Positions 3,118 through 16,596 of a stretch of 24,000 nucleotides of DNA are shown piece after piece. A program made the translations under genes and the position numbers. The stretch comes from Anaerolineae bacterium (GTDB lineage Bacteria > Chloroflexota > Anaerolineae > Caldilineales > Caldilineaceae), in the NCBI GenBank assembly GCA_030432295.1, contig JAUIHI010000004.1, forward strand, positions 185,706 to 209,705, written 5' to 3'. A model generated the notes under the pieces. The model did not search any database. It was given only the letters and a program-made list of their open reading frames with translations, and was not told the DNA's origin. Within the stretch, counting starts at the first letter, position 1, and each line of letters opens with the position of its first letter.

Positions 3118-4482
3118 GTGCCCCAAACCCAATCCAATCGACCGAATGTGATTGTCTTCTTCACCGACCAGCAGCGCTGGGACAGTACCGGCGTCCACGG
3201 CAATCCCCTGGACTTGACGCCCAACTTCGACCGCATGGCCCGCCAGGGAACCCATCTGCACACGACCGTCACCTGCCAGCCCGTCTGCGGACCGGCCCGT
3301 TCCTGTCTGCAAACCGGGATGTATGCCACCAACACTGGCTCCTGGCGCAACGGCATCCCCCTGCGCCAGGATTTGCAAACGATGGCCCATTTCTTCGCGG
3401 CAGGCGGCTACGACACCGGCTATATCGGCAAGTGGCATCTGGCCGACAACCAGTACGAGGGCGCTGTGCCCCCGGAGCAGCGGGGCGGCTACGACTACTG
3501 GCTGGCCTCCAATCTGCTCGAATTCACCTCCGATGCCTACGATATGGTGATGTATGACAACGACCAGCAGCGGGTGAAACTGCCCGGCTATCGGGTGGAT
3601 GCGCAGACCGACGCAGTGATCCGCTATATCGACAGCCACCAGGAAAACCCCTTCTTTCTCTTCATCTCCTATATCGAACCCCACCACCAGAACCATCTGG
3701 ACGACTACCCGCCGCCCGACGGCTACCGGGAGCGCTATGCGGGCCGCTGGACGCCGCCGGATTTGGCCGCGCTGGGCGGTTCCAGCCAGCAACATTTGGG
3801 CGGCTATTGGGGAATGATCAAGCGGCTGGACGAGGCATTGGGCCGGATGACCGACAGCCTGAAAAGTCTGGGGATGCTGGACAACACCGTCATCCTCTAC
3901 ACGACGGATCACGGCAGCCACTTCAAAACCCGCAACAGTGAGTACAAACGCTCCTGTCACGAGGCGTCTGTGCGTCTGCCCACGGCCATCACTGGCCCAG
4001 GCTTCACCGGCGGTGGCGAAATTCGGGAGATGATCAGTCTGGTCGATCTGCCCCCCACACTCCTGGACGCGGCGGGGCTGCCCATTCCGGAGCAGATGGA
4101 GGGGCGCTCGGTGCTGCCACTGGTCAATCGGCAGGCGGTGGACTGGCCGGAAGAGGCTTTTATCCAAATCAGCGAATCGCAGGTGGGGCGGGCCGTGCGC
4201 ACAAAGCGCTGGAAATACGGGGTCACCGCGCCGGACAAGGGGGGCAGCCAGCACTCCGGCTCGGACGAATATGTGGAGCAGTATCTCTACGATCTGGAAT
4301 TCGACCCTTACGAACTAACCAATCTAATCGGCTGGGAGAGCCACCGCCAGGCCAGCGATGTACTGAAGGCGCGGCTGATCCGCCGGATGGTGGAGGCGGG
4401 GGAAGCTGCGCCGGTCATCCACAACGCGCCCTCTATCCCCAAAGGCCAGCGCAAGGTGAGCGAAGCGGAGGCGTATTCCTAA
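3118..4482 (+). CDS. Cys-type sulfatase (arylsulfatase family), no signal peptide
   Basis: N-terminal PNVIVFFTDQQRWD metal-binding motif. Formylglycine signature C-x-P-x-R is present as VCGPARSCLQTG, with Cys codon tgc at 3286-3288. Also GYIGKWHL and LYTTDHG motifs. GTG start is preceded by AAAGGAGAG. No hydrophobic leader. Confidence 0.9.
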   Translation: MPQTQSNRPNVIVFFTDQQRWDSTGVHGNPLDLTPNFDRMARQGTHLHTTVTCQPVCGPARSCLQTGMYATNTGSWRNGIPLRQDLQTMAHFFAAGGYDTGYIGKWHLADNQYEGAVPPEQRGGYDYWLASNLLEFTSDAYDMVMYDNDQQRVKLPGYRVDAQTDAVIRYIDSHQENPFFLFISYIEPHHQNHLDDYPPPDGYRERYAGRWTPPDLAALGGSSQQHLGGYWGMIKRLDEALGRMTDSLKSLGMLDNTVILYTTDHGSHFKTRNSEYKRSCHEASVRLPTAITGPGFTGGGEIREMISLVDLPPTLLDAAGLPIPEQMEGRSVLPLVNRQAVDWPEEAFIQISESQVGRAVRTKRWKYGVTAPDKGGSQHSGSDEYVEQYLYDLEFDPYELTNLIGWESHRQASDVLKARLIRRMVEAGEAAPVIHNAPSIPKGQRKVSEAEAYS

Positions 4483-4929: not shown

Positions 4930-7446
4930 ATGTATGCAGTTCGTCATGTGAGGTGGGTTATTCTATGCATCGTCTTTCTGCTGGGAAGCAGGAATTTGGC
5001 TGGTGCCGTTCCGGTGGGTGGCGAAGCCGACGAGTGGGATGACCGCTTCGGCTTTCCATCTATCGAGTATGGCGCTGTGCGCGCCATCACCGGGGATGGC
5101 GAAAATCTTTATGTGGGGGGCAACTTCACCAGCGCGGGGATTCTGCCCGCCAACAATGTGGCCCGCTGGGATGGCCGCCGCTGGCACCCGTTGGGCACAG
5201 GCATCAACGGTTATGTCTATGCCCTGGCGATCTTCGACAGCAAACTCTATGCAGGCGGTGATTTTACCCAGGCCGGAAGCGTCGAGGTCAACGGTCTCGC
5301 GGTCTGGGATGGCCTAGGCTGGTCAGCCGTGGGATATGGGGCGGGGGCCATGCAGGGCGCATACAAAGGCGTTGTGCGCGCCCTGGCCGTAGCCGACGAC
5401 GCCCTCTACATTGGCGGCGACTTCACCTCCTTCAACGACCTGTCCACCCTGGACATTGTGCGCTGGGACGGACGCAAGCTGACTTCTCTGGGCGATGGCC
5501 TGGGGGATGTGGATTACAACGGCACGATGGATGCCTCCGGCTATGGGAGCATCTACGCTCTGGCTGTCGGGCCGGATGGCACTCTCTATGCCAGCGGCGA
5601 TTTTACCTCTGCGGGCAATCAGCAACCGCTGTTGGTCAACAGTATAGCCCGCTGGGACGGTCGCCGCTGGGAAGCGCTAGGCAGCGGTGTCGAGAAGTCG
5701 TATGGCAAAGGCGAAGTGCGTGCCCTGGCCGTGGACGAAGAGGGCGCGCTATATGCGGGCGGCCAGTTCGCGAAGGCGGGCGGTGAGATAGCCACTTCCA
5801 TTGCCCAGTGGGATGGGAAAGGCTGGCAGCCTGTGGGCCGGGGCGTGGGTATCGATTCGGCCTACAGCTATGTGAGCAGCCTGGCGGTGGTGGACGACGC
5901 CCTCTATGCCGGTGGGGGGATGGCAAGCATTGGGGGCAAAAAAGTGGCGGGGTTGGCCGTCTGGCAGAGGCAGAGATGGACAGGCGTGGGCGACGGGCTG
6001 CGGGATAGCTACGACGGCGTGCTGGCCCTGCACCCGGACGGCGCGGGCGGCCTCTATGCGGGCGGGTCATTTACGGGGACAGACGAACTCTTCAGCCCCA
6101 ATCTGGCCCACTGGACTGGTGACGAGTGGGAAGCGCTGGGGCAGGGACTGGGCTACGGCTCGACCAGTGGCCGGGTGGAAGCGCTGGGGCAGGGATTAGG
6201 CCACGGCTCGACCAGTGGCCGGGTGGAAGCGCTGGGGCAGGGATTAGGCCACGGCTCGACCAGTGGCCGGGTGGAAGCGCTGGTTGTGGATGCCGATGGG
6301 CTGGTCTATGCTGGCGGCAGCTTTGACAGCGCCGCGGGCAAACCTGTACAGAATATCGCGGTCTGGGATGGCCGCCAGTGGGACGCATTGGATGAGGGTG
6401 TCAACGGATCGGTCCTTGCCCTGGCCGCGTACGGCTCCAAAATCTATGTGGGCGGATCCTTCACCAAAGCCGGGGGCACAGGGGCCAGGTACATCGCCCA
6501 ATACGACAGAGTCACCGGGCGCTGGAGTAGCCTGGAGAGCGGCGTCAACGGTTATGTGCGCGCCCTGGCTGTGACGGCAGATGGCACGCTCTATGTGGCC
6601 GGGGATTTCACCGCAGCGGGTGCGTCCACTGCCAGTTACGTAGGCCAGTGGGATGGCAAGAATTGGGCTGCCCTCGGCAAAGGCATCGAACCCAACGGCA
6701 GCGTGCGCGCCCTGGCCTGGGATGGGCGCAATCTCTTTTTGGGCGGTTCTTTCAGCACAGTTGAAGAGGGCCACGAGCAGGTGACGGTCAACGGGCTGCT
6801 GATCTGGGACAGCCAGACCGACGAACGCTACTCTCTCAGCCGGGGCGACAACGTGGGCGTGACCCGGCTGGGCACTTTCGCTGAATTCAGTGGAGAAGTC
6901 TATGCCCTGGCCGTGACGGAGAGCGCTCTGTATGTGGGGGGTGTCTTTGACAGCACAGGCGGTGTGGCCGCCCGAGGCGTGGCAACCTTTGACTTTGACG
7001 AGGGCTGGCAGGCATTGGGCGAGAGTGTGAGCAGCACCGACACGCCCTATGTGTACAGCCTGGCCGTGTCGCCAGATGGCCTCTTTGCCGGTGGCGAGTT
7101 CACCGCGGCGGGGAGAGCACAGACATCTTCCCTGGCCCGCTGGGATGGAGAACGGAAGCAGTGGGAAGGGCTGGGCAACGGATTAAGCCCAGGCGCAAGT
7201 GTCAGGGCACTGGCAGTTTTCGGCGACTCTCTCTATGTGGGTGGGCAATTCGTCTCGGCCGGGACTTCCCCCGCATCCGCCTTTGCCCGCTGGGGGCCAC
7301 CTGTGCAGGTGCAACTAACCCAATCCCAGGTTCTGGGCCGCTATGCCATGCCAACACCCACGCCCACCCCCTGTGCTATCCGTCCGGTGACAGGCGGCGG
7401 TGTGGGTGGTCAAGCCGTTCCCTGTGGGCTACCCTCCCGGCGCTAG
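4930..7446 (+). CDS. secreted beta-propeller repeat protein (about 13-14 blades)
   Basis: Sec-type leader MYAVRHVRWVILCIVFLLGSRNLAGA. It contains 13-14 copies of a blade of about 55 aa with pattern (I/V)A(R/Q/V)WDGxxWxxLGxGxxGxVxALAVxxxxLYVGGxFTxAGG. The C-terminal tail is PTPTPTP followed by a Gly-rich stretch. Confidence 0.85.
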   Translation: MYAVRHVRWVILCIVFLLGSRNLAGAVPVGGEADEWDDRFGFPSIEYGAVRAITGDGENLYVGGNFTSAGILPANNVARWDGRRWHPLGTGINGYVYALAIFDSKLYAGGDFTQAGSVEVNGLAVWDGLGWSAVGYGAGAMQGAYKGVVRALAVADDALYIGGDFTSFNDLSTLDIVRWDGRKLTSLGDGLGDVDYNGTMDASGYGSIYALAVGPDGTLYASGDFTSAGNQQPLLVNSIARWDGRRWEALGSGVEKSYGKGEVRALAVDEEGALYAGGQFAKAGGEIATSIAQWDGKGWQPVGRGVGIDSAYSYVSSLAVVDDALYAGGGMASIGGKKVAGLAVWQRQRWTGVGDGLRDSYDGVLALHPDGAGGLYAGGSFTGTDELFSPNLAHWTGDEWEALGQGLGYGSTSGRVEALGQGLGHGSTSGRVEALGQGLGHGSTSGRVEALVVDADGLVYAGGSFDSAAGKPVQNIAVWDGRQWDALDEGVNGSVLALAAYGSKIYVGGSFTKAGGTGARYIAQYDRVTGRWSSLESGVNGYVRALAVTADGTLYVAGDFTAAGASTASYVGQWDGKNWAALGKGIEPNGSVRALAWDGRNLFLGGSFSTVEEGHEQVTVNGLLIWDSQTDERYSLSRGDNVGVTRLGTFAEFSGEVYALAVTESALYVGGVFDSTGGVAARGVATFDFDEGWQALGESVSSTDTPYVYSLAVSPDGLFAGGEFTAAGRAQTSSLARWDGERKQWEGLGNGLSPGASVRALAVFGDSLYVGGQFVSAGTSPASAFARWGPPVQVQLTQSQVLGRYAMPTPTPTPCAIRPVTGGGVGGQAVPCGLPSRR
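6130..6283 (+). repeat. in-frame 48-bp tandem repeat, 3.2 copies, inside the propeller gene
   Basis: Units lie at 6130-6177, 6178-6225 and 6226-6273, with a partial fourth at 6274-6283. Units 2 and 3 are identical over 48/48 nt. Unit 1 differs at 3 nt (CTG to TTA, synonymous; TAC to CAC, Y to H). The encoded peptide is EALGQGLG(Y/H)GSTSGRV, three times. Confidence 0.95.
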
Positions 7447-8047: not shown

Positions 8048-10480
8048 CTATGCCCGTGCGTGTTGCGACTCGACCGGCGGCTGGTAGACGACCGCCAGAT
8101 GGGGCGTCTCCAGCCGCTGGTGCTCCTGTGCTTTGGAGGTCAGGCAGCTTTCCAGCACGCCGCTGACCAGCAGTGTGCGCTCGGCGGGGAAAGGCGCAAC
8201 GCCTGTTGCAAACATCTCCTCTATTTTGCCCACCAGACAGGCCGAGTAGGTGACATTCGGGCCGGGGGTGAGGAAGAATTGGGTGGAGACCGGCTTTTCC
8301 TCACCGGCCAGGCGGGCGGCAAAGCAGAAATCCTTGAGCGCTCCGTTGAGCATCAGCAGTGTGGCCTGCAGGCCGTCGTTGTATTCGATGCAGTAGGCCG
8401 CAGGGTTTTCCACCAGTTTGTATAGCTCACCGCTGCCCAGCAAATCCTGGGTGCGCCCGTCTTCATCGCTCAGTCCCCGGGGCGAATCGCTACGCGAAAG
8501 CGCTGCTTCCAGCAGTTCCATCGACCAGCGCCCCTCCCGTCCCGCCTGCCAGACCGCCTCACCTTCCAGCAGTTGGACAGCCCGCACGCCGCTCTCCCCC
8601 CCGGCCCGCCGCTCCAGCATACACTGCATAGCTTCCAGCGCGTGGTAGTCCATCGGGTCCGAGCCGCCCACGCCTACCATCAGCGCCTCGTCAACTACGC
8701 AGCCCAGAGGCAATTCCACATCGGGCAGCCGCCAGGTGACAGGCAGGGAAGAACCAGCCAGCAATGGGAATCCGAGCCGGTGAGCGTCATCCACCATCTC
8801 CGCGGCCTTTGTGTAACTATACGAAAGATGCTTGTCGTTGTAGATCGGCACAACCCGGCCATCCGCCTCAAAGACTTCCACGCACTGCACGAAGAAGTCG
8901 TGGCGGGGGTAGAGTATCTGGCCCAGATCGTTGCGGGGATAGTCGCCGTGCTCCACTACCAGCATCACCCCATCCACGGCCAGCTTCTCGCCACCACAGC
9001 GCAGGGCCTCGGCAATCGTCGGGTAGATGTCAAAGCCGAACTCCCGTGCCCGGTCGATGCTCTGATCCCCCACCGGCTGCTGGTCCACGTAGAGGGAGAC
9101 GATCTCCACGTTGGGCCGATGCCAGCGCCCATCCACGGGATAGCCGGTCAGCCAGCGGTCGCAGAAGTGCTGGGCGTGGGAGCGCAGGCGGTAGATGGAG
9201 GCGATGACCGCAATGCGCAGGGGCGGCGCGGGCGGGGGTGGCAATTGGGGGCGGGATGATTGGGGCGTGGGCAACAGATGGACCCGATCCTCCCGCCAGA
9301 AGGTGGACTCGGCTGTGGGCTGGTAGGCGATGGCCAGATGGGGCGTCTCGATGCGAGTCTGCTCTGCGTGCAGACTCTCGATGCCCGCGGCATTGAGGCC
9401 AGTGGTGAGCAGTGTGCGTTCCAGCGGATAGGTCGGCTCGCCGGTCAAAAACATCTGCTCCACCGCGTGGACCTGGGGCGAGAAGAAGTTGGCCAAAGTT
9501 GAGCGGGCTGGCGGCATAGGCAGATACATTTGGGTGGAGAAGGGTTCGCTCTGTCCGTCCAGATGCGCGGCAAAATTGAAGTCCTGCACCAGCCCGCTGA
9601 ACAGAATCATCGTGGAACGGAGGCCGTCGTTGTGCTCGTAGTGGTAGGCAACCGGGTCTTTGACCAATTCCCGCATCTCATCGCCGGTGGGGAAATTGTT
9701 GTTGAATCCGGGTCGGCTCGGTGTCAGTGTGTGGCTGCGGCTGAGCGCGGCTTCGAAAAGTTCCCGTGACCAGACGCCTGCGTGATGGGCCTCCCAGAAG
9801 GCGTCGCCCCGGTAGGACTGCACCCAACGCACGCCGGTCTCGCCCCCGACCCGGCGCTCCACCATACATTGCAGGGTTTCCAGGGCGTGAAAGTCGTAGC
9901 TGTCCACCCCGCCGTAGCCGATGACCAGCGCTTCCCGCACAGACGCGCCCAGGGGCATATCGACGGAAGGGGTGCGCCAGGTCACAGGCAGGGAGGAACC
10001 GGCCATAAAGGCAAAGCCCATCGACTGCGCGGTCTCGGCCATCTCTTTGGCCCATTCCCATTTCCAGGAAAGGTGCTTGTCGTTGAAGATGGGGGCCGTG
10101 CGTCCGGTCATGCGATAGACGGCCACAATCTCTTTGAAGAGTTCGTAGCGGGGGTAGAGATGCTGGCCCTTTTCGTTGTAGGGGTATTCGCCGTGCTCGC
10201 CGATGAGTAGTACACCGTCCACAGCCAGGCTCTCCGTGCCCAGAGTCAGGGCATCTGCCACAGTTGGGTAGAGTTGCATGGACGGGAAGCGGCTGCTGCG
10301 CTCCTGGGCTAAATCGTTCTCGCCTATCTGATCCACATAGGCAGAGACCAAATCCATAGGTGGGTGGTGGTGGCGGTTGTCCCAGCCATAGCCTTCCAGA
10401 AAGCGGTCGATGAAGTGCTGGGCGTGGGCGTATTTGCGGACAACTGTGCAGATGATGGCGATTTTCGGTCGTTGCGGCAT
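8048..10480 (-). CDS. uncharacterised two-module protein: tandem duplication of an about 400-aa Gfo/Idh/MocA-like (glycine-motif-less) unit
   Basis: The two halves align end to end at about 45% identity by eye. Half 1 reads KIAIICTVVRKYAHAQHFIDRFLEGY...LAVDGVLLIGEHGEYP...PIFNDKHLSWKW...MAGSSLPVTWR...YDFHALETLQCMVERRVGGETGVRWVQ...ETPHLAIAYQP. Half 2 reads RIAVIASIYRLRSHAQHFCDRWLTGY...LAVDGVMLVVEHGDYP...PIYNDKHLSYSY...LAGSSLPVTWR...MDYHALEAMQCMLERRAGGESGVRAVQ...ETPHLAVVYQP. The halves are joined by a Pro-rich linker, PQLPPPPAPP, at about 9216-9260. The start is moved to ATG 10480 (MPQRPKIAII), preceded by CAGGAGtctccc. The upstream 65 codons of the track ORF look non-coding. Confidence 0.8.
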   Translation of the reverse strand: MPQRPKIAIICTVVRKYAHAQHFIDRFLEGYGWDNRHHHPPMDLVSAYVDQIGENDLAQERSSRFPSMQLYPTVADALTLGTESLAVDGVLLIGEHGEYPYNEKGQHLYPRYELFKEIVAVYRMTGRTAPIFNDKHLSWKWEWAKEMAETAQSMGFAFMAGSSLPVTWRTPSVDMPLGASVREALVIGYGGVDSYDFHALETLQCMVERRVGGETGVRWVQSYRGDAFWEAHHAGVWSRELFEAALSRSHTLTPSRPGFNNNFPTGDEMRELVKDPVAYHYEHNDGLRSTMILFSGLVQDFNFAAHLDGQSEPFSTQMYLPMPPARSTLANFFSPQVHAVEQMFLTGEPTYPLERTLLTTGLNAAGIESLHAEQTRIETPHLAIAYQPTAESTFWREDRVHLLPTPQSSRPQLPPPPAPPLRIAVIASIYRLRSHAQHFCDRWLTGYPVDGRWHRPNVEIVSLYVDQQPVGDQSIDRAREFGFDIYPTIAEALRCGGEKLAVDGVMLVVEHGDYPRNDLGQILYPRHDFFVQCVEVFEADGRVVPIYNDKHLSYSYTKAAEMVDDAHRLGFPLLAGSSLPVTWRLPDVELPLGCVVDEALMVGVGGSDPMDYHALEAMQCMLERRAGGESGVRAVQLLEGEAVWQAGREGRWSMELLEAALSRSDSPRGLSDEDGRTQDLLGSGELYKLVENPAAYCIEYNDGLQATLLMLNGALKDFCFAARLAGEEKPVSTQFFLTPGPNVTYSACLVGKIEEMFATGVAPFPAERTLLVSGVLESCLTSKAQEHQRLETPHLAVVYQPPVESQHARA

Positions 10481-10684
10481 GGGAGACTCCTGGGGGATGG
10501 ATGGCTTTGCGCTAAAAAATGGACACTGATGGCGCGGAAAGGAATGATTGACGCTGATAATCTCTGCGTGATTTGCGTCCCTTCTATCGGGCATACTGGC
10601 TGCGTCGCAGAGAAGTATAGCCAATTGAGGCTGCGAAGGAAAGCCGGGCTTTCGCCAGAATTGGCCGCAGCCCAATTCCTCCGG

Positions 10685-10794: not shown

Positions 10795-11658
10795 ATGAGA
10801 CTTGGCATTGTGGGGATGTTGCCCGGCGACTTTCGTACTTTTCAGCGGGAGCAGATGCAGGCGATTCGCGACCTGAGCTTCACCGGCTTCGGCTTCCACC
10901 TGAACGGGGATGACGTTTTCGCCATCACACAGGCGGAGTGTGCAGCCGGTCGCCGCTTTTTCGCCGACGAGGAATTGGACCTGGCCCAGTTCGCCATCAC
11001 CTACAACGAATGTCTCTTCCATCCCGACCGGGCCGTGCGCGAACGGGTGACGGCGAAGATCGTCCGGGGCACGGAGATTGCGGCCCAATTGGGCGCACAG
11101 GCCTTCCTACTGCGTCCCGGCAGCCTGAACCCGGACGGTCCCTGGACGCCCCACCGGGACAACCACCGACCCGAATGCGCGGAACTGCTGGTGGAGACTC
11201 TGCGCCCGTTGGCCGCCAAAGCCGAAGCCGAAGGCGTCGTCCTGGCGATGGAAACCCACGCGCTTTCGATTCTGGACCTGCCGCCGAAGTGTCGGAGGAT
11301 TGTGGAGGCTGTTGATTCGCCCAACCTGCGCCTGATTCTGGATGCGGTCAACCATTTTCAGTCTATGCACCAGGTCTACAACAGCAGCGATTGGGTCAAC
11401 CACATCTTCGACGAACTGGGGCCGATTGCGCCTCTGGCCCACATCAAAGACCTGAAAGTCTCCAACGGACTGGTGCTGCACATCGACCAGACTGTGCCGA
11501 GGGAAGGGGAGTTGGATTCGGCGCTGGTGCTCCAACGCTTCGACGCACTCTATCCCAACGGCTATGGCCTCATCGAGCATCTGCCCCTGGAAAAGATTCC
11601 CCAGGCCGTCGCCAATGTGCGCCGCATCGCCGCCGAAGCCGGTGTTGTCATCCATTGA
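10795..11658 (+). CDS. sugar phosphate isomerase/epimerase, xylose-isomerase-like TIM barrel
   Basis: 287 aa with family-typical stretches: IRDLSFTGFGFHL, AAQLGAQAFLLRPGS, VVLAMETHA, NLRLILDAVNH and AHIKDL. Confidence 0.8.
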   Translation: MRLGIVGMLPGDFRTFQREQMQAIRDLSFTGFGFHLNGDDVFAITQAECAAGRRFFADEELDLAQFAITYNECLFHPDRAVRERVTAKIVRGTEIAAQLGAQAFLLRPGSLNPDGPWTPHRDNHRPECAELLVETLRPLAAKAEAEGVVLAMETHALSILDLPPKCRRIVEAVDSPNLRLILDAVNHFQSMHQVYNSSDWVNHIFDELGPIAPLAHIKDLKVSNGLVLHIDQTVPREGELDSALVLQRFDALYPNGYGLIEHLPLEKIPQAVANVRRIAAEAGVVIH

Positions 11659-11783
11659 CAAACCTATTCCAGCAGAGATGAAACGTTATTTTTTAACGCA
11701 GAGGAGAACCCATACATCTTTGCATCTCTGCACCTTTGCATCTTTGCGTTGAAAATTTCACCATCATTTTGATCACTACAGAT

Positions 11784-11818
11784 CAATCCGTGTTCCTTCC
11801 TATCCGTGTATACAAAAC
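11784..11818 (+). repeat. 35-bp ATCCGTGT-N10-ATCCGTGT-TACAAA element, copy A
   Basis: caatccgtgttccttcctatccgtgtatacaaaac. It is 29/35 identical to the reverse complement of 14130-14164 and similar to 14174-14208. It lies 43 nt upstream of ATG 11861. Confidence 0.7.
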
Positions 11819-11860
11819 ATAGACACACAAGTTCATCCACCCACGAAAGAGACAATCCCA

Positions 11861-12994
11861 ATGCCCGCAACCGACGACATCTACACCCAACTGGGCATTC
11901 AGCCCGTCATCAATGCCACCGGCCACGTGACGATTCTGGGCGGCTCGGTGCTTTCTCCCGGCGTGCAGGCGGCAATGACCGCGGCCAACCGCTCCTTCGC
12001 CGCGATGGAAGATGTCCACAACCGCACGGGCGCGCTCATCGCCGGGAAGCTGGGCGTGGAAAATGCGGTGGTCACCTCCGGCTGCTACGCTGCGCTGGTG
12101 CAGGGCGCAGCGGGGATTCTGGCCGGCACAGACCCGGAGCGCATCGGTCGCCTGCCCGATACCACCGGCATCCCCAACGAATTTCTGATCCAGGCCGCCA
12201 CCCGCTACCGCTACGACCGCGCGGTGACGACCCCCGGCGGCAAACTGGTGGAGGTGGGGGACAGCAATGGCACAACAGCCGAACAGCTACGCGCAGCCAT
12301 CGGCCCCCAGACCGCGGGTATCCTTTTCTATGCCAAAGGCGAAAGCACGCCCAATACACTGAAACTGGCACAAGTCGTAGAAATCGCCCACGCCGCGGGT
12401 GTGCAGGTGCTGGTGGACGCGGCGGGCGAGGTCTATCCCCTGGAACGGATGCACGGGGTGGCGGGCAGCGGAGCGGACCTGATCTGCTTTGGCGGCAAAT
12501 ATATGGGTGCGGGCAACTCGACCGGCATCCTTTGCGGCAAAAACGAAGCGGTGCTGGCGGCCCGGCGCAACGGCTTTGTCAGCTACGAGACGGAGAACAA
12601 CCGCAGCGTGGGCCGGGGCTACAAAATCGACCGCCAGGAGGTGATTGGCACGACCGTCGCCCTGACCGAGTGGCTGGAAATGGACCACGAACAGCGCTTG
12701 CAGAGCCAGGCCGAGCGCATCGGTTTTCTGGCTGAAGGCCTGGCCGATCTGCCCCACATCTCCGCCCGCAATGTGTGGGACGAGGAGGGTGGGCCGTGGA
12801 TGCGTCTGCGTCTGGAGTGGGACAGCGCCACGGTCGGCAAAAGCGCAGCGGAGGTCTCGGCAGCCCTGCGCAACGGGTCGCCGGTGGTCTGGGCGCGGGC
12901 CGAGGGAGACGTCATTCCCATCTCCGTACATACACTTTCCGAGGAAGAGTTGCCGATCCTTCTGGGCCGCCTGCGCGAGGAATTGGCCCGATAA
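11861..12994 (+). CDS. SelA-like / DgaE-like PLP-dependent enzyme (fold-type I), not a true selenocysteine synthase
   Basis: N-terminus DIYTQLGIQPVINATGHVTILGGS. Candidate PLP-lysine motif DLICFGGKYMGAGNSTGIL, with Lys codon aaa at 12497-12499. At 377 aa it is too short to carry the SelA N-terminal tRNA-binding domain. Confidence 0.75.
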   Translation: MPATDDIYTQLGIQPVINATGHVTILGGSVLSPGVQAAMTAANRSFAAMEDVHNRTGALIAGKLGVENAVVTSGCYAALVQGAAGILAGTDPERIGRLPDTTGIPNEFLIQAATRYRYDRAVTTPGGKLVEVGDSNGTTAEQLRAAIGPQTAGILFYAKGESTPNTLKLAQVVEIAHAAGVQVLVDAAGEVYPLERMHGVAGSGADLICFGGKYMGAGNSTGILCGKNEAVLAARRNGFVSYETENNRSVGRGYKIDRQEVIGTTVALTEWLEMDHEQRLQSQAERIGFLAEGLADLPHISARNVWDEEGGPWMRLRLEWDSATVGKSAAEVSAALRNGSPVVWARAEGDVIPISVHTLSEEELPILLGRLREELAR

Positions 12995-13018
12995 GTGCTG
13001 TAGTTCAGGTAATTATTG

Positions 13019-13080
13019 GTAGGGGCGCTTGCTTGCTGCGCCCGCTGTGGGACACGGGCGCAGCAAGCAAGCGCCCCTAC
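13019..13080. repeat. perfect 25-bp-arm palindrome (REP-like element / strong hairpin)
   Basis: gtaggggcgcttgcttgctgcgccc (13019-13043), a 12-nt loop, then gggcgcagcaagcaagcgcccctac (13056-13080). It lies 25 nt after stop 12994 and 53 nt before ATG 13134. No U-tract follows. Confidence 0.85.
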
Positions 13081-13133
13081 AGGACAAATCGTTGTCGGGA
13101 TAACACTGGCCCACAAGACGAGGAAAATCACTG

Positions 13134-14102
13134 ATGCTGGAAAAAGTACGTGTGGGAATGATCGGCGCGGGGGGTATGGCAAATCGGGTCCACTACCCGT
13201 CCCTGGCCTCTTTTGCCGATGTGGAGATCGCGGCCATCTGCGATCTGGACGAGGCGCGGCTGACTACAACCGCCGACAAATACGGGGTGCAAGGACGCTA
13301 CAACGACTACCAAAAAATGGTCGAGGAGGTCGCGCCCGATGCGGTCTACGCCATTGGACCGCCCCATCTGCTATACGACGTCTGGCAGTGGTGCTTGAGC
13401 CAGGGGCTGAATCTCTGCATCGAAAAGCCGATGGGCATCACTATGCACCAGGCCCGCTCCCTGGCCCATCTGGCCGATCGCCACGGCTGCATCACCCAAG
13501 TCAGCTTCCAGCGGCGCAGTTCGCCGCTACTGGTCCACCTGCACGCCCAGTGTCTGGACAGAGGGCCGATCGTCCACGCCCAGTCTACTTTCTTCAAATG
13601 CGAGATCGATCCGTACCTCCACGCCCGGGACCGGATGCTGGACGACGGCGTACATTCCATCGACACCCTGCGCTGGCTGTGTGGCGGCGAAGTCGTCAAT
13701 GTCCAAAGTCTGACCAAACGGGTGCAGGTTCCCGACATCAACTTCCTCTCCGCGCTGCTCGAATTCGACAACGGCGCGACGGGCATTTTGGTCAACAGTT
13801 GGACCAGCGGACGGCGCATTTTCAAGGTTGAGGCCCACGCGCCGGGTATCTGTATGGAGGCCAACCCGGAGGGCAAAGGCCATCTACACGCGGATGGCGA
13901 CACCACAGGTGTGGAGTACGAGACCCGACAGGTGGCAGGCAGCGACGAATTCTATATTTACGGCGGTTTTCAGGCCAAGAACCGGGAGTTCATCGACGGG
14001 GTGAAGAACCACACATTGCCCCCTTCCCACTTTGGCGATGCGCTGAAAACAATGGAAGTAGCCGAAATCATTCTGGCCCAGGCGTTGCTGGCCGGGCGCT
14101 AG
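13134..14102 (+). CDS. Gfo/Idh/MocA family NAD(P)-dependent oxidoreductase
   Basis: Rossmann motif VRVGMIGAGGMANRVHYPSL, conserved CIEKP motif and a C-terminal alpha/beta domain. The RBS GAGGAA lies 8 nt upstream. Confidence 0.9.
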   Translation: MLEKVRVGMIGAGGMANRVHYPSLASFADVEIAAICDLDEARLTTTADKYGVQGRYNDYQKMVEEVAPDAVYAIGPPHLLYDVWQWCLSQGLNLCIEKPMGITMHQARSLAHLADRHGCITQVSFQRRSSPLLVHLHAQCLDRGPIVHAQSTFFKCEIDPYLHARDRMLDDGVHSIDTLRWLCGGEVVNVQSLTKRVQVPDINFLSALLEFDNGATGILVNSWTSGRRIFKVEAHAPGICMEANPEGKGHLHADGDTTGVEYETRQVAGSDEFYIYGGFQAKNREFIDGVKNHTLPPSHFGDALKTMEVAEIILAQALLAGR

Positions 14103-14129
14103 GCCAAATCGATGACGTGCTCGCTATTT

Positions 14130-14208
14130 CTTTTGTAAACACGGATGAGAAGAAACACGGATAGCTTTGAACCCTATCCATGTTTCTTCTCATCCGTGCT
14201 TACAAATT
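14130..14208. repeat. inverted pair of the 35-bp ATCCGTGT element (copies B and C), forming a hairpin of about 33 bp
   Basis: Left arm cttttgtaaacacggatgagaagaaacacggatag (14130-14164), loop ctttgaacc, right arm ctatccatgtttcttctcatccgtgcttacaaatt (14174-14208). The arms are complementary apart from 2 internal mismatches, plus mismatches at the outer 2 nt. The pair sits between stop 14102 and start 14236/14239. Confidence 0.8.
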
Positions 14209-14235
14209 TCTATCTGATATTGCATAAGGAGAAAA

Positions 14236-14982
14236 GTGATGGTCAAGCAATTGAAATTACGCCTGCGATCCCACGTGCTGGACCACAACGAGCGGGGCTG
14301 GGCCGTCTGGCGGGAAGAGATCGCCGAGCGTTCCCTGCCCGCGGATCGGGTTGCTATCGTCATCTGCGATATGTGGGATCAGCACTGGAGTCGGGGTGCG
14401 GTCGAGCGGGTTGGCGAGATGGTTCCCCGGATGGAGGCGGTGCTGGCCGCGGCCCGGGCGAAGGGCGTCCACATTATCCACGCGCCGTCGGAGACAATGG
14501 AATTCTACACGGATCACTCGGCCCGTCAGCGCATTCTGGCCCTGCCGCCTGTCGAGCCACCGCCCAACCGGGAACTCCCTGATCCGCCCTCGCCCATCGA
14601 CGACCGGGACGGCGGCTCGGATACGGGCGAGCCAGAGATGTCCCAGGTGTGGACCCGCCAGCATGCGGGGCTGACGATTGACCCGGAACGGGATGTGATC
14701 TCGGACAACGGGCGGGAGGTCTACAGCTATCTGCGCCATCACGCCATCGAACAGGTGCTGATAATGGGGGTGCATACAAATATGTGTATCCTGCGCCGCT
14801 CCTTCGCTATCAAACAGATGGTGAAATGGGGGCAAGAAATCGCACTGGTGCGGGACCTGACCGACACAATGTACAACCCGGCCAGCGCCCCGTATGTGAG
14901 CCACGACGAGGGAACCCAACTGGTCATCGGCTATATCGAACGCTTCTGGTGTCCGTCGGTTTCCAGCGGGGAGATAAGCTAA
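14236..14982 (+). CDS. isochorismatase-like cysteine hydrolase family protein with a Pro/Asp-rich insertion
   Basis: VAIVICDMWDQHW (catalytic-Asp region) and VLIMGVHTNMCILRRS (nucleophile-Cys region). An insertion of about 45 aa, LPPVEPPPNRELPDPPSPIDDRDGGSDTGEPE, lies between them. The track start is GTG 14236. ATG 14239 has better spacing to AGGAG (14227-14231). Confidence 0.7.
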   Translation: MMVKQLKLRLRSHVLDHNERGWAVWREEIAERSLPADRVAIVICDMWDQHWSRGAVERVGEMVPRMEAVLAAARAKGVHIIHAPSETMEFYTDHSARQRILALPPVEPPPNRELPDPPSPIDDRDGGSDTGEPEMSQVWTRQHAGLTIDPERDVISDNGREVYSYLRHHAIEQVLIMGVHTNMCILRRSFAIKQMVKWGQEIALVRDLTDTMYNPASAPYVSHDEGTQLVIGYIERFWCPSVSSGEIS

Positions 14983-15035: not shown

Positions 15036-15764
15036 TCAGTCGGCACTTTTCCGCGCCTTCAGCCAGCGGGAAAAGCCCAGCCCCAACAGCAGCATTCCCA
15101 GGGAAAAGCCACCCAACAGCCAACGTTGACTCGCCGTCGAATCGGCACTAAAGACCGAACCGAGCAGCGTAAAGGTCAACGCGCCGGGCAGCACGCCCAG
15201 CAGCGTGCCCGTGGCGTATTGCAGCCAGGGAACCCGCACAAAGCCGCAGAGGTAGTTGACCAGATCGTAGGGCAAATAGATCAGGCGCATGACCAGCACA
15301 GCCTCAAAGCCGTTGCGCCGCAGATTGGACGCATAGCGGGCCACAAAGCCGCTGGCTTCGGCGTCGTCTTCGCTAAAGAGATCGCCGCCAAAGAAGCGTC
15401 CCACAAAATAGGCCAGTGTCCCGGAGAGATTGCCGCCGATCAGCGCATAGCCGGTCCCCAGCAGCGGGCCGTAGAGATAGCCGCTCATCGCCGTCATGAT
15501 TGTAGCGGGGAAGAAGATCAGCGGGCGTAGCGTGTACAGAATGACATACAGCAACGGCCCCCACGCGCTCTCCGCCAAAAAGTCCCGCAGTTGCAGTGCG
15601 GCTTCCTGCGCGGACAGCCCCGTCGAGCGCATATACCAGACGTATCCCCCCAGCAACGCCAGCCAGAAGATGCCTGCACTGAATTTCGTGCCGTGTTTCC
15701 ACACAAAGTCAAAAAAGGTTTGTCGAGGCTCCTGCACGTCAAGTTCCATGCCTTCTCCAGTCAT
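15036..15764 (-). CDS. TVP38/TMEM64 (DedA/SNARE-associated) family membrane protein
   Basis: Multi-TM protein with family-typical PLIFFPATIMTAMSGYLYGPLLGTGYALIGGNLSGTLAYFVGRFFG and RLIYLPYDLVNYLCGF. An alternative start, ATG 15749 (MELDVQ), follows GGAGAAGGC and may be the real one. Confidence 0.8.
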   Translation of the reverse strand: MTGEGMELDVQEPRQTFFDFVWKHGTKFSAGIFWLALLGGYVWYMRSTGLSAQEAALQLRDFLAESAWGPLLYVILYTLRPLIFFPATIMTAMSGYLYGPLLGTGYALIGGNLSGTLAYFVGRFFGGDLFSEDDAEASGFVARYASNLRRNGFEAVLVMRLIYLPYDLVNYLCGFVRVPWLQYATGTLLGVLPGALTFTLLGSVFSADSTASQRWLLGGFSLGMLLLGLGFSRWLKARKSAD

Positions 15765-15804
15765 CTGTCATCGTTACCAGTCCCGCTTGCCAGTCCTAAG
15801 TTCC

Positions 15805-16410
15805 TTACTCCAAATTGTGCCACGCCCACCACACCCGCTGACAAGCGGTGACGACGACCAGCCCAGCCATCACCCCAAAGAGCCAGGGCACGTAGGCGGG
15901 CAGAAGAAAGAAGAGGGTGTAGAAAACAACTGTCTCGGCCCCTTCGATCAGTCCCGCGGGCATCTCGACAGAAGTGAGCCGCCCCACGACCCCGGCCTGA
16001 CGCTTCTCCAGCAGAGAGGAGAGGAGCGTCCACGACAGGCTGTTGATCTGATAGGCGGCCAGCAGCCCAATGATCGTCCACAAGTGGGCAGGCGTGGGCG
16101 TTGCGATGACAAAGGCGATGGGGATGGCCAGATAGACGACGTAATCGAGGAGCAGGTCCAGATAGCCGCCGAAGTCGCTCTGCTTGTCGTGGATGCGGGC
16201 CACCACCCCGTCCAGCCCATCCAGCACCCGGTTGAGCAACCAGAAGCCGATGCCCCAGCCCAATTCTCCCTGCACAATCGCCGCGGCCGAGAGCAAACCG
16301 GGAACCAATGCAACAAAAGAAATCAGATTCGGCGAGACCGATCTAAAGAAAGACCGCGCCAGAGGCTCCAGCACGCGATCTTTTTGTTCGCGCAGCACCG
16401 CATCTTTCAT
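15805..16410 (-). CDS. CDP-alcohol phosphatidyltransferase family protein
   Basis: Signature D-G-x2-A-R-x8-G-x3-D-x3-D is present as DGLDGVVARIHDKQSDFGGYLDLLLD. The protein is 201 aa and polytopic. The RBS is AAGAGGTGAGCA before the ATG. Confidence 0.88.
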   Translation of the reverse strand: MKDAVLREQKDRVLEPLARSFFRSVSPNLISFVALVPGLLSAAAIVQGELGWGIGFWLLNRVLDGLDGVVARIHDKQSDFGGYLDLLLDYVVYLAIPIAFVIATPTPAHLWTIIGLLAAYQINSLSWTLLSSLLEKRQAGVVGRLTSVEMPAGLIEGAETVVFYTLFFLLPAYVPWLFGVMAGLVVVTACQRVWWAWHNLE

Positions 16411-16485
16411 TGCTCACCTCTTGGATTTAGAAGTCCGACTTTTTCTGAAAAGTTGAGCTTCTATGAGGACGGATTGGCAAAGGCA

Positions 16486-16513
16486 GCGCAGGGGCCGAAA
16501 GCGACCCCTGCGC
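16486..16513 (-). terminator. hairpin downstream of serS (possible terminator)
   Basis: gcgcagggg (16486-16494), a 10-nt loop, then cccctgcgc (16505-16513). It lies 84 nt past the serS stop. On the minus strand it is followed by tgcctttgcc, a weak U-tract. Confidence 0.4.
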
Positions 16514-16596
16514 CTGTGTACAGCCATCTTCCTTGCAATGCGCCTGTGCGTCAGTAAGTGGTCCTACGTTAGCGGCGGGTGGTCCGACAGTCCGCG

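What the first reader, a model, noticed from the sequence alone, without database searches (positions are those of the whole stretch)
8048..10480. Tandem-duplicated, fused, dehydrogenase-like protein lacking a dinucleotide-binding glycine motif
The 810-aa product consists of two full-length paralogous modules joined by a proline linker (PQLPPPPAPP). The modules are about 45% identical by eye along their whole length. Their layout loosely parallels Gfo/Idh/MocA oxidoreductases. There is an N-terminal beta strand plus a His-containing helix (KIAIICTVVRKYAHAQHF / RIAVIASIYRLRSHAQHF). A second strand reads VDGVLLIGEHGEYP. An NDKHLS element sits where those enzymes carry EKP. The GxGxxG motif is absent from both halves, although the bona fide family member at 13134 has GAGGMA. 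This suggests either a cofactor-independent or pseudo-dehydrogenase scaffold, or an uncharacterised enzyme family that works as an obligate pseudo-dimer. It is divergently transcribed from the sugar-type cluster at 10795-14982.
Basis: partly seen in the sequence, partly recalled or inferred. Interest (0 to 1): 0.7.

Follow-up and report, generated by a model that had tools for sequence, protein, structure and literature searches.

The report
Fused heterodimer of unannotated dehydrogenase-fold family
This gene joins the two subunits of a very widespread but completely unannotated bacterial protein family that has the shape of a sugar dehydrogenase yet lacks the signature loop that normally holds the NAD cofactor, so it probably represents an undescribed kind of enzyme.

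Summary
Window 8048-10480 (-) encodes an 810-aa protein made of two full-length modules: A (aa 1-410) and B (aa 421-810), joined by PQLPPPPAPP. The modules are 47% identical (E 6e-131).

It is not an artefact or a recent duplication. The DNA halves are only about 67% identical in patches. The same protein occurs in an independent assembly.

In most other genomes, A and B are separate, adjacent, tightly coupled genes. They have fused at least three separate times, always in the order A then B.

AlphaFold models are confident (pLDDT 88 and 93; full-length pTM 0.92). Every top PDB fold match is a Gfo/Idh/MocA oxidoreductase.

No sequence method (Pfam, NCBIfam, PDB profiles, hhalign) links the family to them. 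The GxGxxG/A fingerprint is replaced family-wide by T-x-[YW]-x3-S-H-A, and EKP by D-K-H. About 20 polar residues are near-invariant in both modules.

The family is large: 3805 clusters at 50% identity, in at least seven phyla. The Planctomycetota branch mostly carries Sec-like signals, which argues against cytoplasm-loaded NAD(P).

Best reading: an active enzyme, an obligate A/B pseudo-heterodimer, with a repurposed dinucleotide cleft, acting on sugar-like metabolites. The substrate and cofactor are unresolved.

The parts
8048..10480 (-). Whole gene: 810-aa fused A-B protein plus stop codon
   Evidence: ORF and translation. The identical 810-aa product is called in an independent assembly. More than 80 full-length fused homologues exist, at 55-91% identity.
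10487..10490 (-). Shine-Dalgarno-like GGAG, 6 nt upstream of the ATG at 10480
   Evidence: Sequence read. It supports the 810-aa start over the upstream TTG at 10675.
9251..10480 (-). Module A (aa 1-410): Gfo/Idh/MocA-like two-domain fold, A-type paralogue
   Evidence: AF2 pLDDT 88.2, pTM 0.88. Foldseek PDB top hits are all of the Gfo/Idh/MocA fold, E about 1e-12. It is 73% identical to stand-alone A genes such as P0092.
9221..9250 (-). Proline-rich linker PQLPPPPAPP (aa 411-420)
   Evidence: Translation. It lies in the second-lowest-pLDDT 10-residue block of the full-length model, value 60. The linker region has no consensus in the alignment of fused homologues.
8051..9220 (-). Module B (aa 421-810): same fold, B-type paralogue
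   Evidence: 47% identical to module A. 73% identical to the stand-alone B gene L001:9401-10576. It has the same secondary-structure order in the full-length model.
10415..10447 (-). Module A beta1-alphaA loop TVVRKYAHAQH, in the place of the GxGxxG/A fingerprint
   Evidence: Family consensus is T-x-[YW]-x3-S-H-A, with no conserved Gly.
9167..9199 (-). Module B beta1-alphaA loop SIYRLRSHAQH
10190..10198 (-). Module A E95-H96-G97 at the end of beta4
   Evidence: 78, 74 and 81 of 88 diverse members carry E, H and G here; 100% in the Planctomycetota subfamily.
8945..8953 (-). Module B E510-H511-G512 (same motif)
10073..10081 (-). Module A D134-K135-H136 at the end of beta5, the position of EKP in Gfo/Idh/MocA enzymes
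   Evidence: Strand 131-134 in the models. The hhalign alignment puts DKH on EKP but is not significant. 100% conserved in the Planctomycetota subfamily.
8828..8836 (-). Module B D549-K550-H551
9833..9904 (-). Module A C-domain helix motif DSYDFHALETLQCMVERRVGGETG. It holds D193, Y195, H198, E201, Q204, E208, R210 and E214.
8588..8659 (-). Module B equivalent DPMDYHALEAMQCMLERRAGGESG
10795..11658 (+). Divergent neighbour: xylose-isomerase-like TIM-barrel protein. This is context, not a conserved partner.
   Evidence: Pfam PF01261, E 1.6e-23. It is also the neighbour in the independent assembly L088. Among the fetched loci it clusters only with one ORF of L079.
11861..12994 (+). DgaE-family-like PLP ammonia-lyase relative
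   Evidence: NCBIfam TIGR01437, E 2e-55, below the curated cut-off. Homologues sit directly downstream of split A-B pairs in Bryobacterales loci L083 and L063, and at the same position in L069.
13134..14102 (+). Canonical Gfo/Idh/MocA oxidoreductase (GAGGMA fingerprint, IEKP)
   Evidence: Pfam PF01408, E 8.6e-22, and PF22725. Sequence.

Best explanation
The gene encodes a natural fusion of the two subunits, A and B, of a large, unannotated protein family.

Fold. Each module has the two-domain Gfo/Idh/MocA architecture: an N-terminal Rossmann-type domain and a C-terminal alpha/beta sheet domain.

Motifs. The family has rebuilt the dinucleotide cleft.
- The GxGxxG/A fingerprint is replaced by a longer, glycine-free loop, T-x-[YW]-x3-S-H-A.
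- EKP becomes D-K-H.
- The TPxxxH and NxR positions are replaced by E-H-G-[DE]-Y-P and G-S-S-x-P-x-x-W-R.

Assembly. A and B arose by an ancient duplication. They normally form a heterodimer encoded by adjacent, often overlapping genes. Here they fold as an intramolecular pseudo-heterodimer with two complete clefts.

Mechanism (inferred). It is an active enzyme, not a scaffold. Its cleft no longer depends on exchangeable, cytoplasm-loaded NAD(P). It most likely uses the invariant His/Asp/Glu/Lys/Arg set, possibly with a divalent metal, to transform a sugar-like or amino-sugar-like small metabolite.

Confidence by step.
- Shown: modular anatomy, fold, motif replacement, the A/B gene pair and its repeated fusion, and the size of the family.
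- Inferred: heterodimer contact, catalytic competence, independence from NAD(P), and substrate class.
- About 0.85 for the structural and evolutionary part. About 0.4 for the NAD-independent catalytic mechanism.
For: Anatomy: 47% identity between the halves, E 6e-131.

Fold:
- AF2 pLDDT 88.2 / pTM 0.88 for module A.
- AF2 pLDDT 92.6 / pTM 0.92 for the full length.
- Segments that are poorly predicted in the isolated module become confident in the full-length model (10-residue blocks from residues 161, 251 and 391: 58, 64, 54 rise to 91, 85, 89).
- The top 50 Foldseek PDB hits are all of the Gfo/Idh/MocA fold.

The A/B pair:
- L001 carries an A gene, then 48 nt later a B gene. That B gene is 73% identical to module B and 46% to module A.
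- Of the loci where my ORF calling placed the family, 49 are split A-then-B on one strand. In 27 of these the gap is -3 to +6 nt.
- The NJ tree shows two deep, mirrored A and B clades. Fused forms appear in at least three separate positions, always A-then-B.

Conservation:
- Family-wide motifs in 88 diverse members.
- 95-100% conservation of H19, D50, Q51, E95, H96, G97, Y99, D134, K135, H136, S162, W168, R169, H198, E201, E208, R210, E214, D285 and R355 in the Planctomycetota subfamily. All are present in both modules here.

Against cytoplasm-loaded NAD(P):
- No glycine fingerprint anywhere in the family.
- 94 of 120 Planctomycetota members have a hydrophobic N-terminal signal without a twin arginine.
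- P0187 fuses the module behind a signal peptide, a PQQ-type GSDH domain and a c-type cytochrome.

Sugar link:
- Fusions to the DUF1080 / 3-keto-disaccharide-hydrolase domain occur in both orders: P0148 at E 1.6e-41 and P0179.
- DUF1080 genes lie next to the family in L001-L003 and L004.
- DUF1080 proteins are 3-keto-glucoside lyases/hydratases (bioRxiv 10.1101/2024.03.25.586180).

Size: 3805 clusters at 50% identity with E <= 1e-3.
Against: - No coordinates were available, so I could not check that the invariant residues cluster in the cleft, form a metal site, or that the pocket is closed to NAD.
- Features compatible with NAD binding persist. There is an acidic residue at the end of beta2 (D/E50) and the Lys of the EKP position. 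Tat-type signals are common in the Acidobacteriota and other branches (Pfam TAT_signal in 11 of 88 members; regex count), as in NADP-carrying GFOR.
- Signal-peptide types were judged with simple rules, not with a dedicated predictor.
- Genomic context is heterogeneous. Neighbours include PhyH, VOC/glyoxalase, DgaE-like lyase, creatininase, M19 dipeptidase, aldo/keto reductase, DUF1080 and canonical Gfo/Idh/MocA genes. It does not define a substrate.
- Planctomycete members have no informative neighbours.
Confidence: 0.55

Rival explanations
1. It is a genuine NAD(P)-dependent sugar dehydrogenase or redox-neutral 'oxidise-then-reduce' enzyme. The dinucleotide is held, probably very tightly, by a non-canonical loop (Thr/Ser/His plus several Arg instead of glycines). 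In this it would resemble GFOR, GH109 or the BT2158-type glycoside 3-dehydrogenases.
For: - Gfo/Idh/MocA fold.
- Acidic residue at the end of beta2 (D/E50, 80-98%) and a Lys at the EKP position.
- Many members carry Tat signals, the export route used by cofactor-loaded periplasmic Gfo/Idh/MocA enzymes.
- Fusions and adjacency to DUF1080, which works with such dehydrogenases.
- Canonical Gfo/Idh/MocA genes nearby in the window and in L092.
Against: - No glycine in the fingerprint loop in any of about 200 diverse members, and the loop is three residues longer than the canonical one.
- Three of the five canonical NAD-contact motifs are replaced.
- Most Planctomycetota members have Sec-like signals, and some are fused to c-type cytochromes. 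Both imply folding in the periplasm, where there is no NAD(P).
- Profile methods find no similarity to the NAD-binding domain PF01408.
Confidence: 0.3
2. It is a non-catalytic pseudoenzyme, meaning a ligand sensor, scaffold or regulator. It would resemble yeast Gal80p or human GFOD1, which have the same fold.
For: - Loss of the cofactor fingerprint.
- GFOD1 is a documented cofactor-deficient member of the fold (PMC11612644).
- Gal80p is among the fold hits.
- The gene is divergently placed next to a catabolic cluster.
Against: - About 20 polar or charged residues are 95-100% conserved across phyla and in both modules. They lie at the C-terminal ends of beta1, beta2, beta4, beta5 and beta6 and on the first C-domain helix. 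That is the pattern of an active site.
- Most members are exported singles with no regulatory partner.
- There is no DNA-binding domain.
- Fusion partners are enzymes.
Confidence: 0.08
3. The two-module gene is an assembly artefact or a very recent in-situ tandem duplication.
For: None beyond the internal repeat itself.
Against: - The halves are 47% identical in protein and about 67% in DNA, in patches only.
- No tandem repeat is detected.
- The identical 810-aa protein is present in an independent assembly.
- More than 80 fused homologues exist in several phyla.
- Each half is closer (73%) to stand-alone A or B genes of other phyla than to its partner.
Confidence: 0.01

Closest known systems
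Gfo/Idh/MocA oxidoreductases (Pfam PF01408 + PF02894/PF22725). Examples: GenD2/KanD2, B. subtilis inositol dehydrogenase, Z. mobilis GFOR.
   Same: Predicted two-domain fold and order of secondary-structure elements. A Lys at the end of beta5 and a His on the first C-domain helix, at the positions of the catalytic EKP Lys and D-x3-H His (weak). Oligomerisation as a dimer-like unit. Some members are exported by Tat.
   Different: No detectable sequence similarity. The GxGxxG/A fingerprint is absent family-wide. EKP becomes DKH. The family has extra conserved motifs of its own: EHG[DE]YP, GSSxPxxWR and ERRxGGETG. It has an A/B heterodimer lineage with repeated fusion. Many members are Sec-exported.
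GFOD1/GFOD2, the human Gfo/Idh/MocA-fold pseudoenzymes (PMC11612644)
   Same: Same fold, with impaired or absent canonical cofactor binding.
   Different: GFOD1 still has a GxSxxA fingerprint and clear sequence homology to GFOR (23.8% identity). It is a homodimer, and its cofactor-contact residues are lost rather than replaced by a new conserved set. That paper calls the GFOD proteins the sole cofactor-deficient members of the family. The family here is bacterial, far larger, and has a highly conserved cleft.
Oxidation-elimination-hydration-reduction glycoside-cleavage clusters. Examples: AL/BT2156-2160, bioRxiv 10.1101/2024.03.25.586180; levoglucosan LgdA/B1/B2/C, PMC7676230.
   Same: The same cast of protein families recurs around and fused to this family. 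These are DUF1080, xylose-isomerase-like TIM barrels and Gfo/Idh/MocA proteins. Many members are periplasmic.
   Different: No member of the present family has been reported in those pathways. The window lacks a DUF1080 gene. The association is recurrent but not universal.

Membership tests
Gfo/Idh/MocA oxidoreductase family | Significant match to the family's sequence models (PF01408 N-terminal NAD-binding domain; PF02894/PF22725 C-terminal domains) | tested here: not met
   No Pfam or NCBIfam hit for the full protein or either half at E <= 1. Of 88 diverse family members, only one touches PF01408, at E 0.03. hhalign of family profile against canonical profile gives probability 1%. A PDB profile search finds nothing.
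Gfo/Idh/MocA oxidoreductase family | GxGxxG / GxGxxA fingerprint between beta1 and alpha1 (as defined in PMC11612644) | tested here: not met
   The loops read TVVRKYAHAQH and SIYRLRSHAQH. Family consensus is T-x-[YW]-x3-S-H-A, without a conserved Gly. The canonical neighbour at 13134 has GAGGMA.
Gfo/Idh/MocA oxidoreductase family | Second consensus GxxVxCEKP at the end of beta5 | tested here: inconclusive
   P-[VI]-[FY]-N-D-K-H-L-S sits at the end of strand 131-134. Lys is retained, Glu becomes Asp, and Pro becomes His. The residue equivalence rests on topology and on a non-significant hhalign alignment.
Gfo/Idh/MocA oxidoreductase family | Two-domain fold: Rossmann domain plus C-terminal alpha/beta domain with a large sheet | tested here: met
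   High-confidence AF2 models. All top 50 Foldseek PDB hits are of this fold, E 2e-12 to 1e-9, TM 0.5-0.67 normalised to the target.
Gfo/Idh/MocA oxidoreductase family | Binds NAD(P) and catalyses hydride transfer | not testable with these tools
   Only indirect arguments are available: motif loss, and Sec-like signals in 94 of 120 Planctomycetota members.
Gfo/Idh/MocA oxidoreductase family | Dimer (or tetramer) formed through the C-terminal sheet domain | tested here: inconclusive
   A full-length pTM of 0.92, and the gain in confidence for segments that were disordered in the isolated module, indicate a fixed A-B packing. The interface itself could not be inspected, because no coordinates were returned.
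GFOD1-like pseudoenzymes | Recognisable sequence homology to GFOR, with loss (not replacement) of cofactor-contact and catalytic residues | tested here: not met
   No sequence homology to the family. The cleft residues are replaced by a new set that is 95-100% conserved.
3-keto-glycoside cleavage clusters (DUF1080 + TIM-barrel lyase + two Gfo/Idh/MocA) | Co-occurrence of all component families in one locus | tested here: not met
   The window has a TIM barrel and one Gfo/Idh/MocA gene but no DUF1080. DUF1080 is fused or adjacent to the family in other organisms only.

The most novel reading that the evidence does not exclude
The family is a new class of cofactor-independent or metal-dependent carbohydrate-active enzyme. 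On this reading it has converted the dinucleotide cleft of the Gfo/Idh/MocA fold into a different active site. It would work as an obligate A/B heterodimer, or as a fused pseudo-dimer, in the cytoplasm, and as exported single-module proteins in Planctomycetota. If so, thousands of 'hypothetical proteins' in at least seven phyla share an undescribed chemistry.
Probability: 0.4. Interest if true: 0.8.

Novelty: new variant of a known kind. Interest (0 to 1): 0.68.

Why it matters
The family is very large: 3805 clusters at 50% identity. Its members span Chloroflexota, Poribacteria, Latescibacterota, Gemmatimonadota, Acidobacteriota and Planctomycetota. It has no Pfam or NCBIfam model, and every public name found is 'hypothetical protein'.

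It shows how a classical NAD-binding fold can lose its fingerprint yet keep a strongly conserved cleft. A 2024 paper held the GFOD proteins to be the only cofactor-deficient members of this fold.

The repeated A-B fusions give a ready-made single-chain construct for biochemistry and structure determination.

Defining its activity would annotate thousands of genes in sponge symbionts, soil Acidobacteriota and Planctomycetota. It may also add a step to oxidative or 3-keto routes of sugar breakdown.

Tried and rejected
Sequence searches that found nothing:
- Pfam, NCBIfam and PDB sequence and profile searches on the full protein, both halves, a 30-sequence profile and 88 individual members. There were no meaningful hits.
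- hhalign of the family profile against the window's canonical Gfo/Idh/MocA protein, and against a 120-sequence profile of it. Neither was significant.

Public names and literature:
- Public names for ten diverse members were all unnamed or 'hypothetical'.
- Literature searches for a description of such a family found only work on canonical family members and on GFOD1.

Genomic context:
- I looked for a universal genomic partner across 88 loci. Only lineage-specific neighbours emerged.
- Cluster 1 of that analysis was an antisense ORF artefact.
- Three Planctomycetota contexts were uninformative.
- The window's own neighbour cluster is mostly not conserved with the family.

Rejected readings:
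- Assembly artefact or recent duplication.
- The longer 875-aa ORF from the TTG at 10675. Homologues and the Shine-Dalgarno sequence favour the ATG at 10480.
Full report
**1. The observation**

The minus-strand ORF runs 8048-10675 from a TTG. Three things support this ATG:
- It is preceded by GGAG six nucleotides upstream.
- It is the start of the 810-aa homologues.
- It is the start of an identical protein called in an independent assembly, with the same two flanking genes (L088).

The protein splits at PQLPPPPAPP (aa 411-420). BLASTP of the two halves gives 47% identity over 393 residues, E 6e-131. At the DNA level only patches align, at 66-84%. Tandem Repeats Finder finds nothing in the gene. 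The duplication is therefore real and old, not an assembly artefact.

**2. No sequence-level assignment**

- Pfam and NCBIfam return nothing for the full protein or either half.
- phmmer and a family profile find nothing in the PDB.
- Scanning 88 diverse members one by one yields only TAT_signal (11 members) and one marginal PF01408 hit at E 0.03.
- hhalign against the canonical Gfo/Idh/MocA protein of the same window, alone or as a 120-sequence profile, is not significant.
- Every public name I found is 'hypothetical protein'.

**3. The fold**

AlphaFold2 on module A with a 30-sequence alignment gives pLDDT 88.2 and pTM 0.88. The full-length protein with 57 fused homologues gives pLDDT 92.6 and pTM 0.92.

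The element order is beta1 (6-11), loop, helix (19-29), beta2 (43-49), beta4 (89-93), beta5 (131-134) and beta6 (158-161). A sheet-rich C-terminal domain follows.

Foldseek against the PDB returns only Gfo/Idh/MocA-fold proteins in the top 50 for both models. These include GenD2, KanD2, biliverdin reductase, inositol dehydrogenases, GFOR, Gal80p, YjhC and NAD-dependent glycosidases. E values are about 1e-12 to 1e-9, TM up to 0.67, and identity 8-16%.

**4. What replaces the canonical motifs**

The family fingerprints are given in PMC11612644: GxGxxG/A between beta1 and alpha1, and GxxVxCEKP.

In this family:
- The first is a longer, glycine-free loop, T-x-[YW]-x3-S-H-A. In the window it reads TVVRKYAHAQH and SIYRLRSHAQH.
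- The second is P-V-F-x-D-K-H-L-S.

Further near-invariant motifs are:
- S-x-Y-x-[DE]-Q at the end of beta2
- E-H-G-[DE]-Y-P after beta4
- Q-x-L-Y-P-[RK]
- G-S-S-x-P-x-x-W-R after beta6
- [DE]-x-Y-x-F-H-x-x-E-x-x-Q-x-x-x-E-R-R-x-G-G-E-T-G in the C-domain

The best hhalign path is colinear, though not significant. It places H19 on the His that follows the glycine loop, DKH on EKP, and H198 on the His of the D-x3-H motif.

Both modules of the window protein carry the whole set. Neither looks degenerate.

**5. A and B are two subunits**

The homologue search shows fused proteins of about 810 aa and single-module proteins of 390-460 aa. The singles are 70-77% identical to one half, which is far more than the 47% between the halves.

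In L001 an A gene is followed 48 nt later by a B gene. That B gene is 73% identical to module B and 46% to module A. The loci of P0103 and P0116 show the same arrangement.

I scanned one genome per species and kept the 80 best loci. With simple ORF calling over all loci fetched by then plus the window:
- 49 carried split A-then-B pairs on one strand; 27 of these had gaps of -3 to +6 nt.
- 12 carried fused genes.
- 18 were unclear.

A neighbour-joining tree of the modules has two deep clades, A and B, with mirrored topology. Fused genes occur in at least three separate positions:
- the Caldilineaceae/Chloroflexota group, nested among split Latescibacterota and Poribacteria
- an Acidobacteriota gene, sister to a split pair
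- a deep Bryobacteraceae plus Fuerstiella branch

The order is always A then B. Repeated fusion in one order, tight gene coupling and co-divergence together argue for a physical A-B complex. The pTM of 0.92 supports this. So does the rise in confidence of three segments when the partner module is present (58, 64, 54 rising to 91, 85, 89). All of this is inference from prediction. I could not inspect the interface.

**6. Size and spread**

A profile search of 1.84 billion representatives finds 3805 clusters at E <= 1e-3 and 928 at E <= 1e-30. They come from Chloroflexota, Latescibacterota, Poribacteria, Gemmatimonadota and Acidobacteriota.

A third, single-module subfamily is abundant in Planctomycetota. 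For it, 7966 of 8000 scored candidates reach E <= 1e-10.

**7. Cofactor question**

For NAD(P):
- An acidic residue at the end of beta2 is retained.
- The Lys at the EKP position is retained.
- Tat signals are frequent.

Against NAD(P):
- There is no glycine in the loop in any member.
- The TPxxxH and NxR positions are also replaced.
- In the Planctomycetota subfamily, 94 of 120 proteins have a hydrophobic signal without a twin arginine, yet keep every motif at 95-100%.
- P0187 places the module behind a Sec-type signal, a PQQ-type GSDH domain and c-type cytochrome motifs.

Proteins exported unfolded cannot pick up NAD(P) in the periplasm. That is established knowledge, but applied here with home-made signal rules.

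I therefore favour a cleft that no longer depends on NAD(P), at about 0.4. The main rival is a non-canonical, tightly bound NAD(P), at about 0.3. The abundance of invariant His, Asp, Glu, Lys, Arg, Tyr and Trp residues fits a sugar-binding, acid-base or metal-assisted site. No metal site was shown.

**8. Functional context**

There is no universal neighbour. Recurrent partners are:
- the DUF1080 / 3-keto-disaccharide-hydrolase domain, fused on either side of the module (P0148, P0179) or adjacent (L001-L003, L004)
- PhyH-type dioxygenase immediately upstream, with a VOC/glyoxalase gene beside it in Poribacteria and in the Caldilineaceae locus L092
- DgaE-like PLP lyase directly downstream in Bryobacterales, and 1.4 kb away in the window
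- creatininase-family amidase, M19 dipeptidase and aldo/keto reductase
- canonical Gfo/Idh/MocA genes and TIM barrels
- other fusions: SDR epimerase, esterase and metallophosphoesterase

DUF1080 proteins are 3-keto-glucoside lyases/hydratases. They work with TIM-barrel lyases and with Gfo/Idh/MocA enzymes carrying tightly bound NAD (10.1101/2024.03.25.586180; compare PMC7676230).

This points to sugar-like or amino-sugar-like small molecules. It does not identify the reaction.

**9. Comparison and verdict**

The protein works within a Gfo/Idh/MocA-like architecture. It fails the family's sequence-defined membership tests (models, fingerprint) and only partly keeps EKP.

It differs from the GFOD1 pseudoenzymes. 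Those retain sequence homology to GFOR and simply lose the cofactor-contact residues.

I class it as a new variant of a known kind: an unannotated superfamily branch with a rebuilt cleft and an A/B heterodimer that has fused repeatedly.

The correction is that the gene is a fusion of two old paralogues, not a local duplication.

Noticed in passing
window 6129-6283 (inside ORF 4930-7446, +): A 48-bp unit is repeated 3.2 times at 97% identity. It encodes near-perfect EALGQGLG(Y/H)GSTSGRV repeats inside an 838-aa beta-propeller-type protein that has an apparent N-terminal signal peptide (Pfam matches to Rax2, DUF5122, Reg_prop and Kelch).
   Followed up: partly
window 18292-24000 (-): An ORF of more than 1900 aa with TPR repeats. 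Its listed ATG occupies the last three bases of the window, so the true gene may extend beyond the window end. There is no other domain assignment.
   Followed up: partly
window 11861-12994 (+); L083:12456-14054, L063:12756-14033, L069:12454-14051: The DgaE-family-like PLP lyase of the window scores below the NCBIfam cut-off. It recurs directly downstream of split A-B pairs in Bryobacterales loci L083 and L063, and at the same position in L069. This is a cross-phylum association that hints at amino-sugar-acid chemistry.
   Followed up: partly
L092:6981-7742, L093:6874-7797; Poribacteria loci L024, L027, L047: A PhyH-type Fe(II)/2-oxoglutarate dioxygenase gene sits immediately upstream of the family gene(s) in Caldilineaceae relatives (87% and 79% identical to the window protein) and in Poribacteria. 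A VOC/glyoxalase gene is beside it in Poribacteria and in L092. The window itself lacks this PhyH gene.
   Followed up: partly
P0086, P0088, P0090, P0095, P0103, P0106 (stand-alone B subunits): Called B-subunit proteins carry a 60-75-aa N-terminal extension that is rich in Pro, Arg and Lys and looks disordered. The fused B module lacks it. It may be a real tail or a mis-called start overlapping the A gene.
   Followed up: no
P0099 (872 aa), P0094 (700 aa): P0099 is a partial A-B fusion followed by an M19 dipeptidase domain. P0094 has a Tat signal, a metallophosphoesterase domain and an A-type module. M19 dipeptidase genes also lie next to A-B pairs in Acidobacteriota (L038, L058, L083) and at the same position in L069.
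   Followed up: partly
P0476, P0479, P0508, P0509, P0512, P0161: Planctomycetota members with an extra N-terminal domain of about 140-320 aa and no Pfam match. The sequence looks propeller-like.
   Followed up: no
window 3118-4482 (+): A sulfatase gene (PF00884, E 1e-52). Sulfatase genes occur within 10 kb of the family in 17 of the compared loci. They are usually several kb away, so this may only reflect the sulfatase-rich genomes of these phyla.
   Followed up: partly
window 15036-15764 (-) and 15496-16557 (+); 16597-17877 (-) and 16579-17736 (+): Long ORFs on opposite strands overlap real genes (a VTT/DedA-domain protein and seryl-tRNA synthetase). The ORFs without a Pfam match are probably high-GC shadow ORFs.
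   Followed up: partly
P0072 and P0098: A fused 810-aa gene and a stand-alone B-type gene are both reported from contigs of the same length (389,349 bp). This suggests that one genome can hold several paralogous sets.
   Followed up: no
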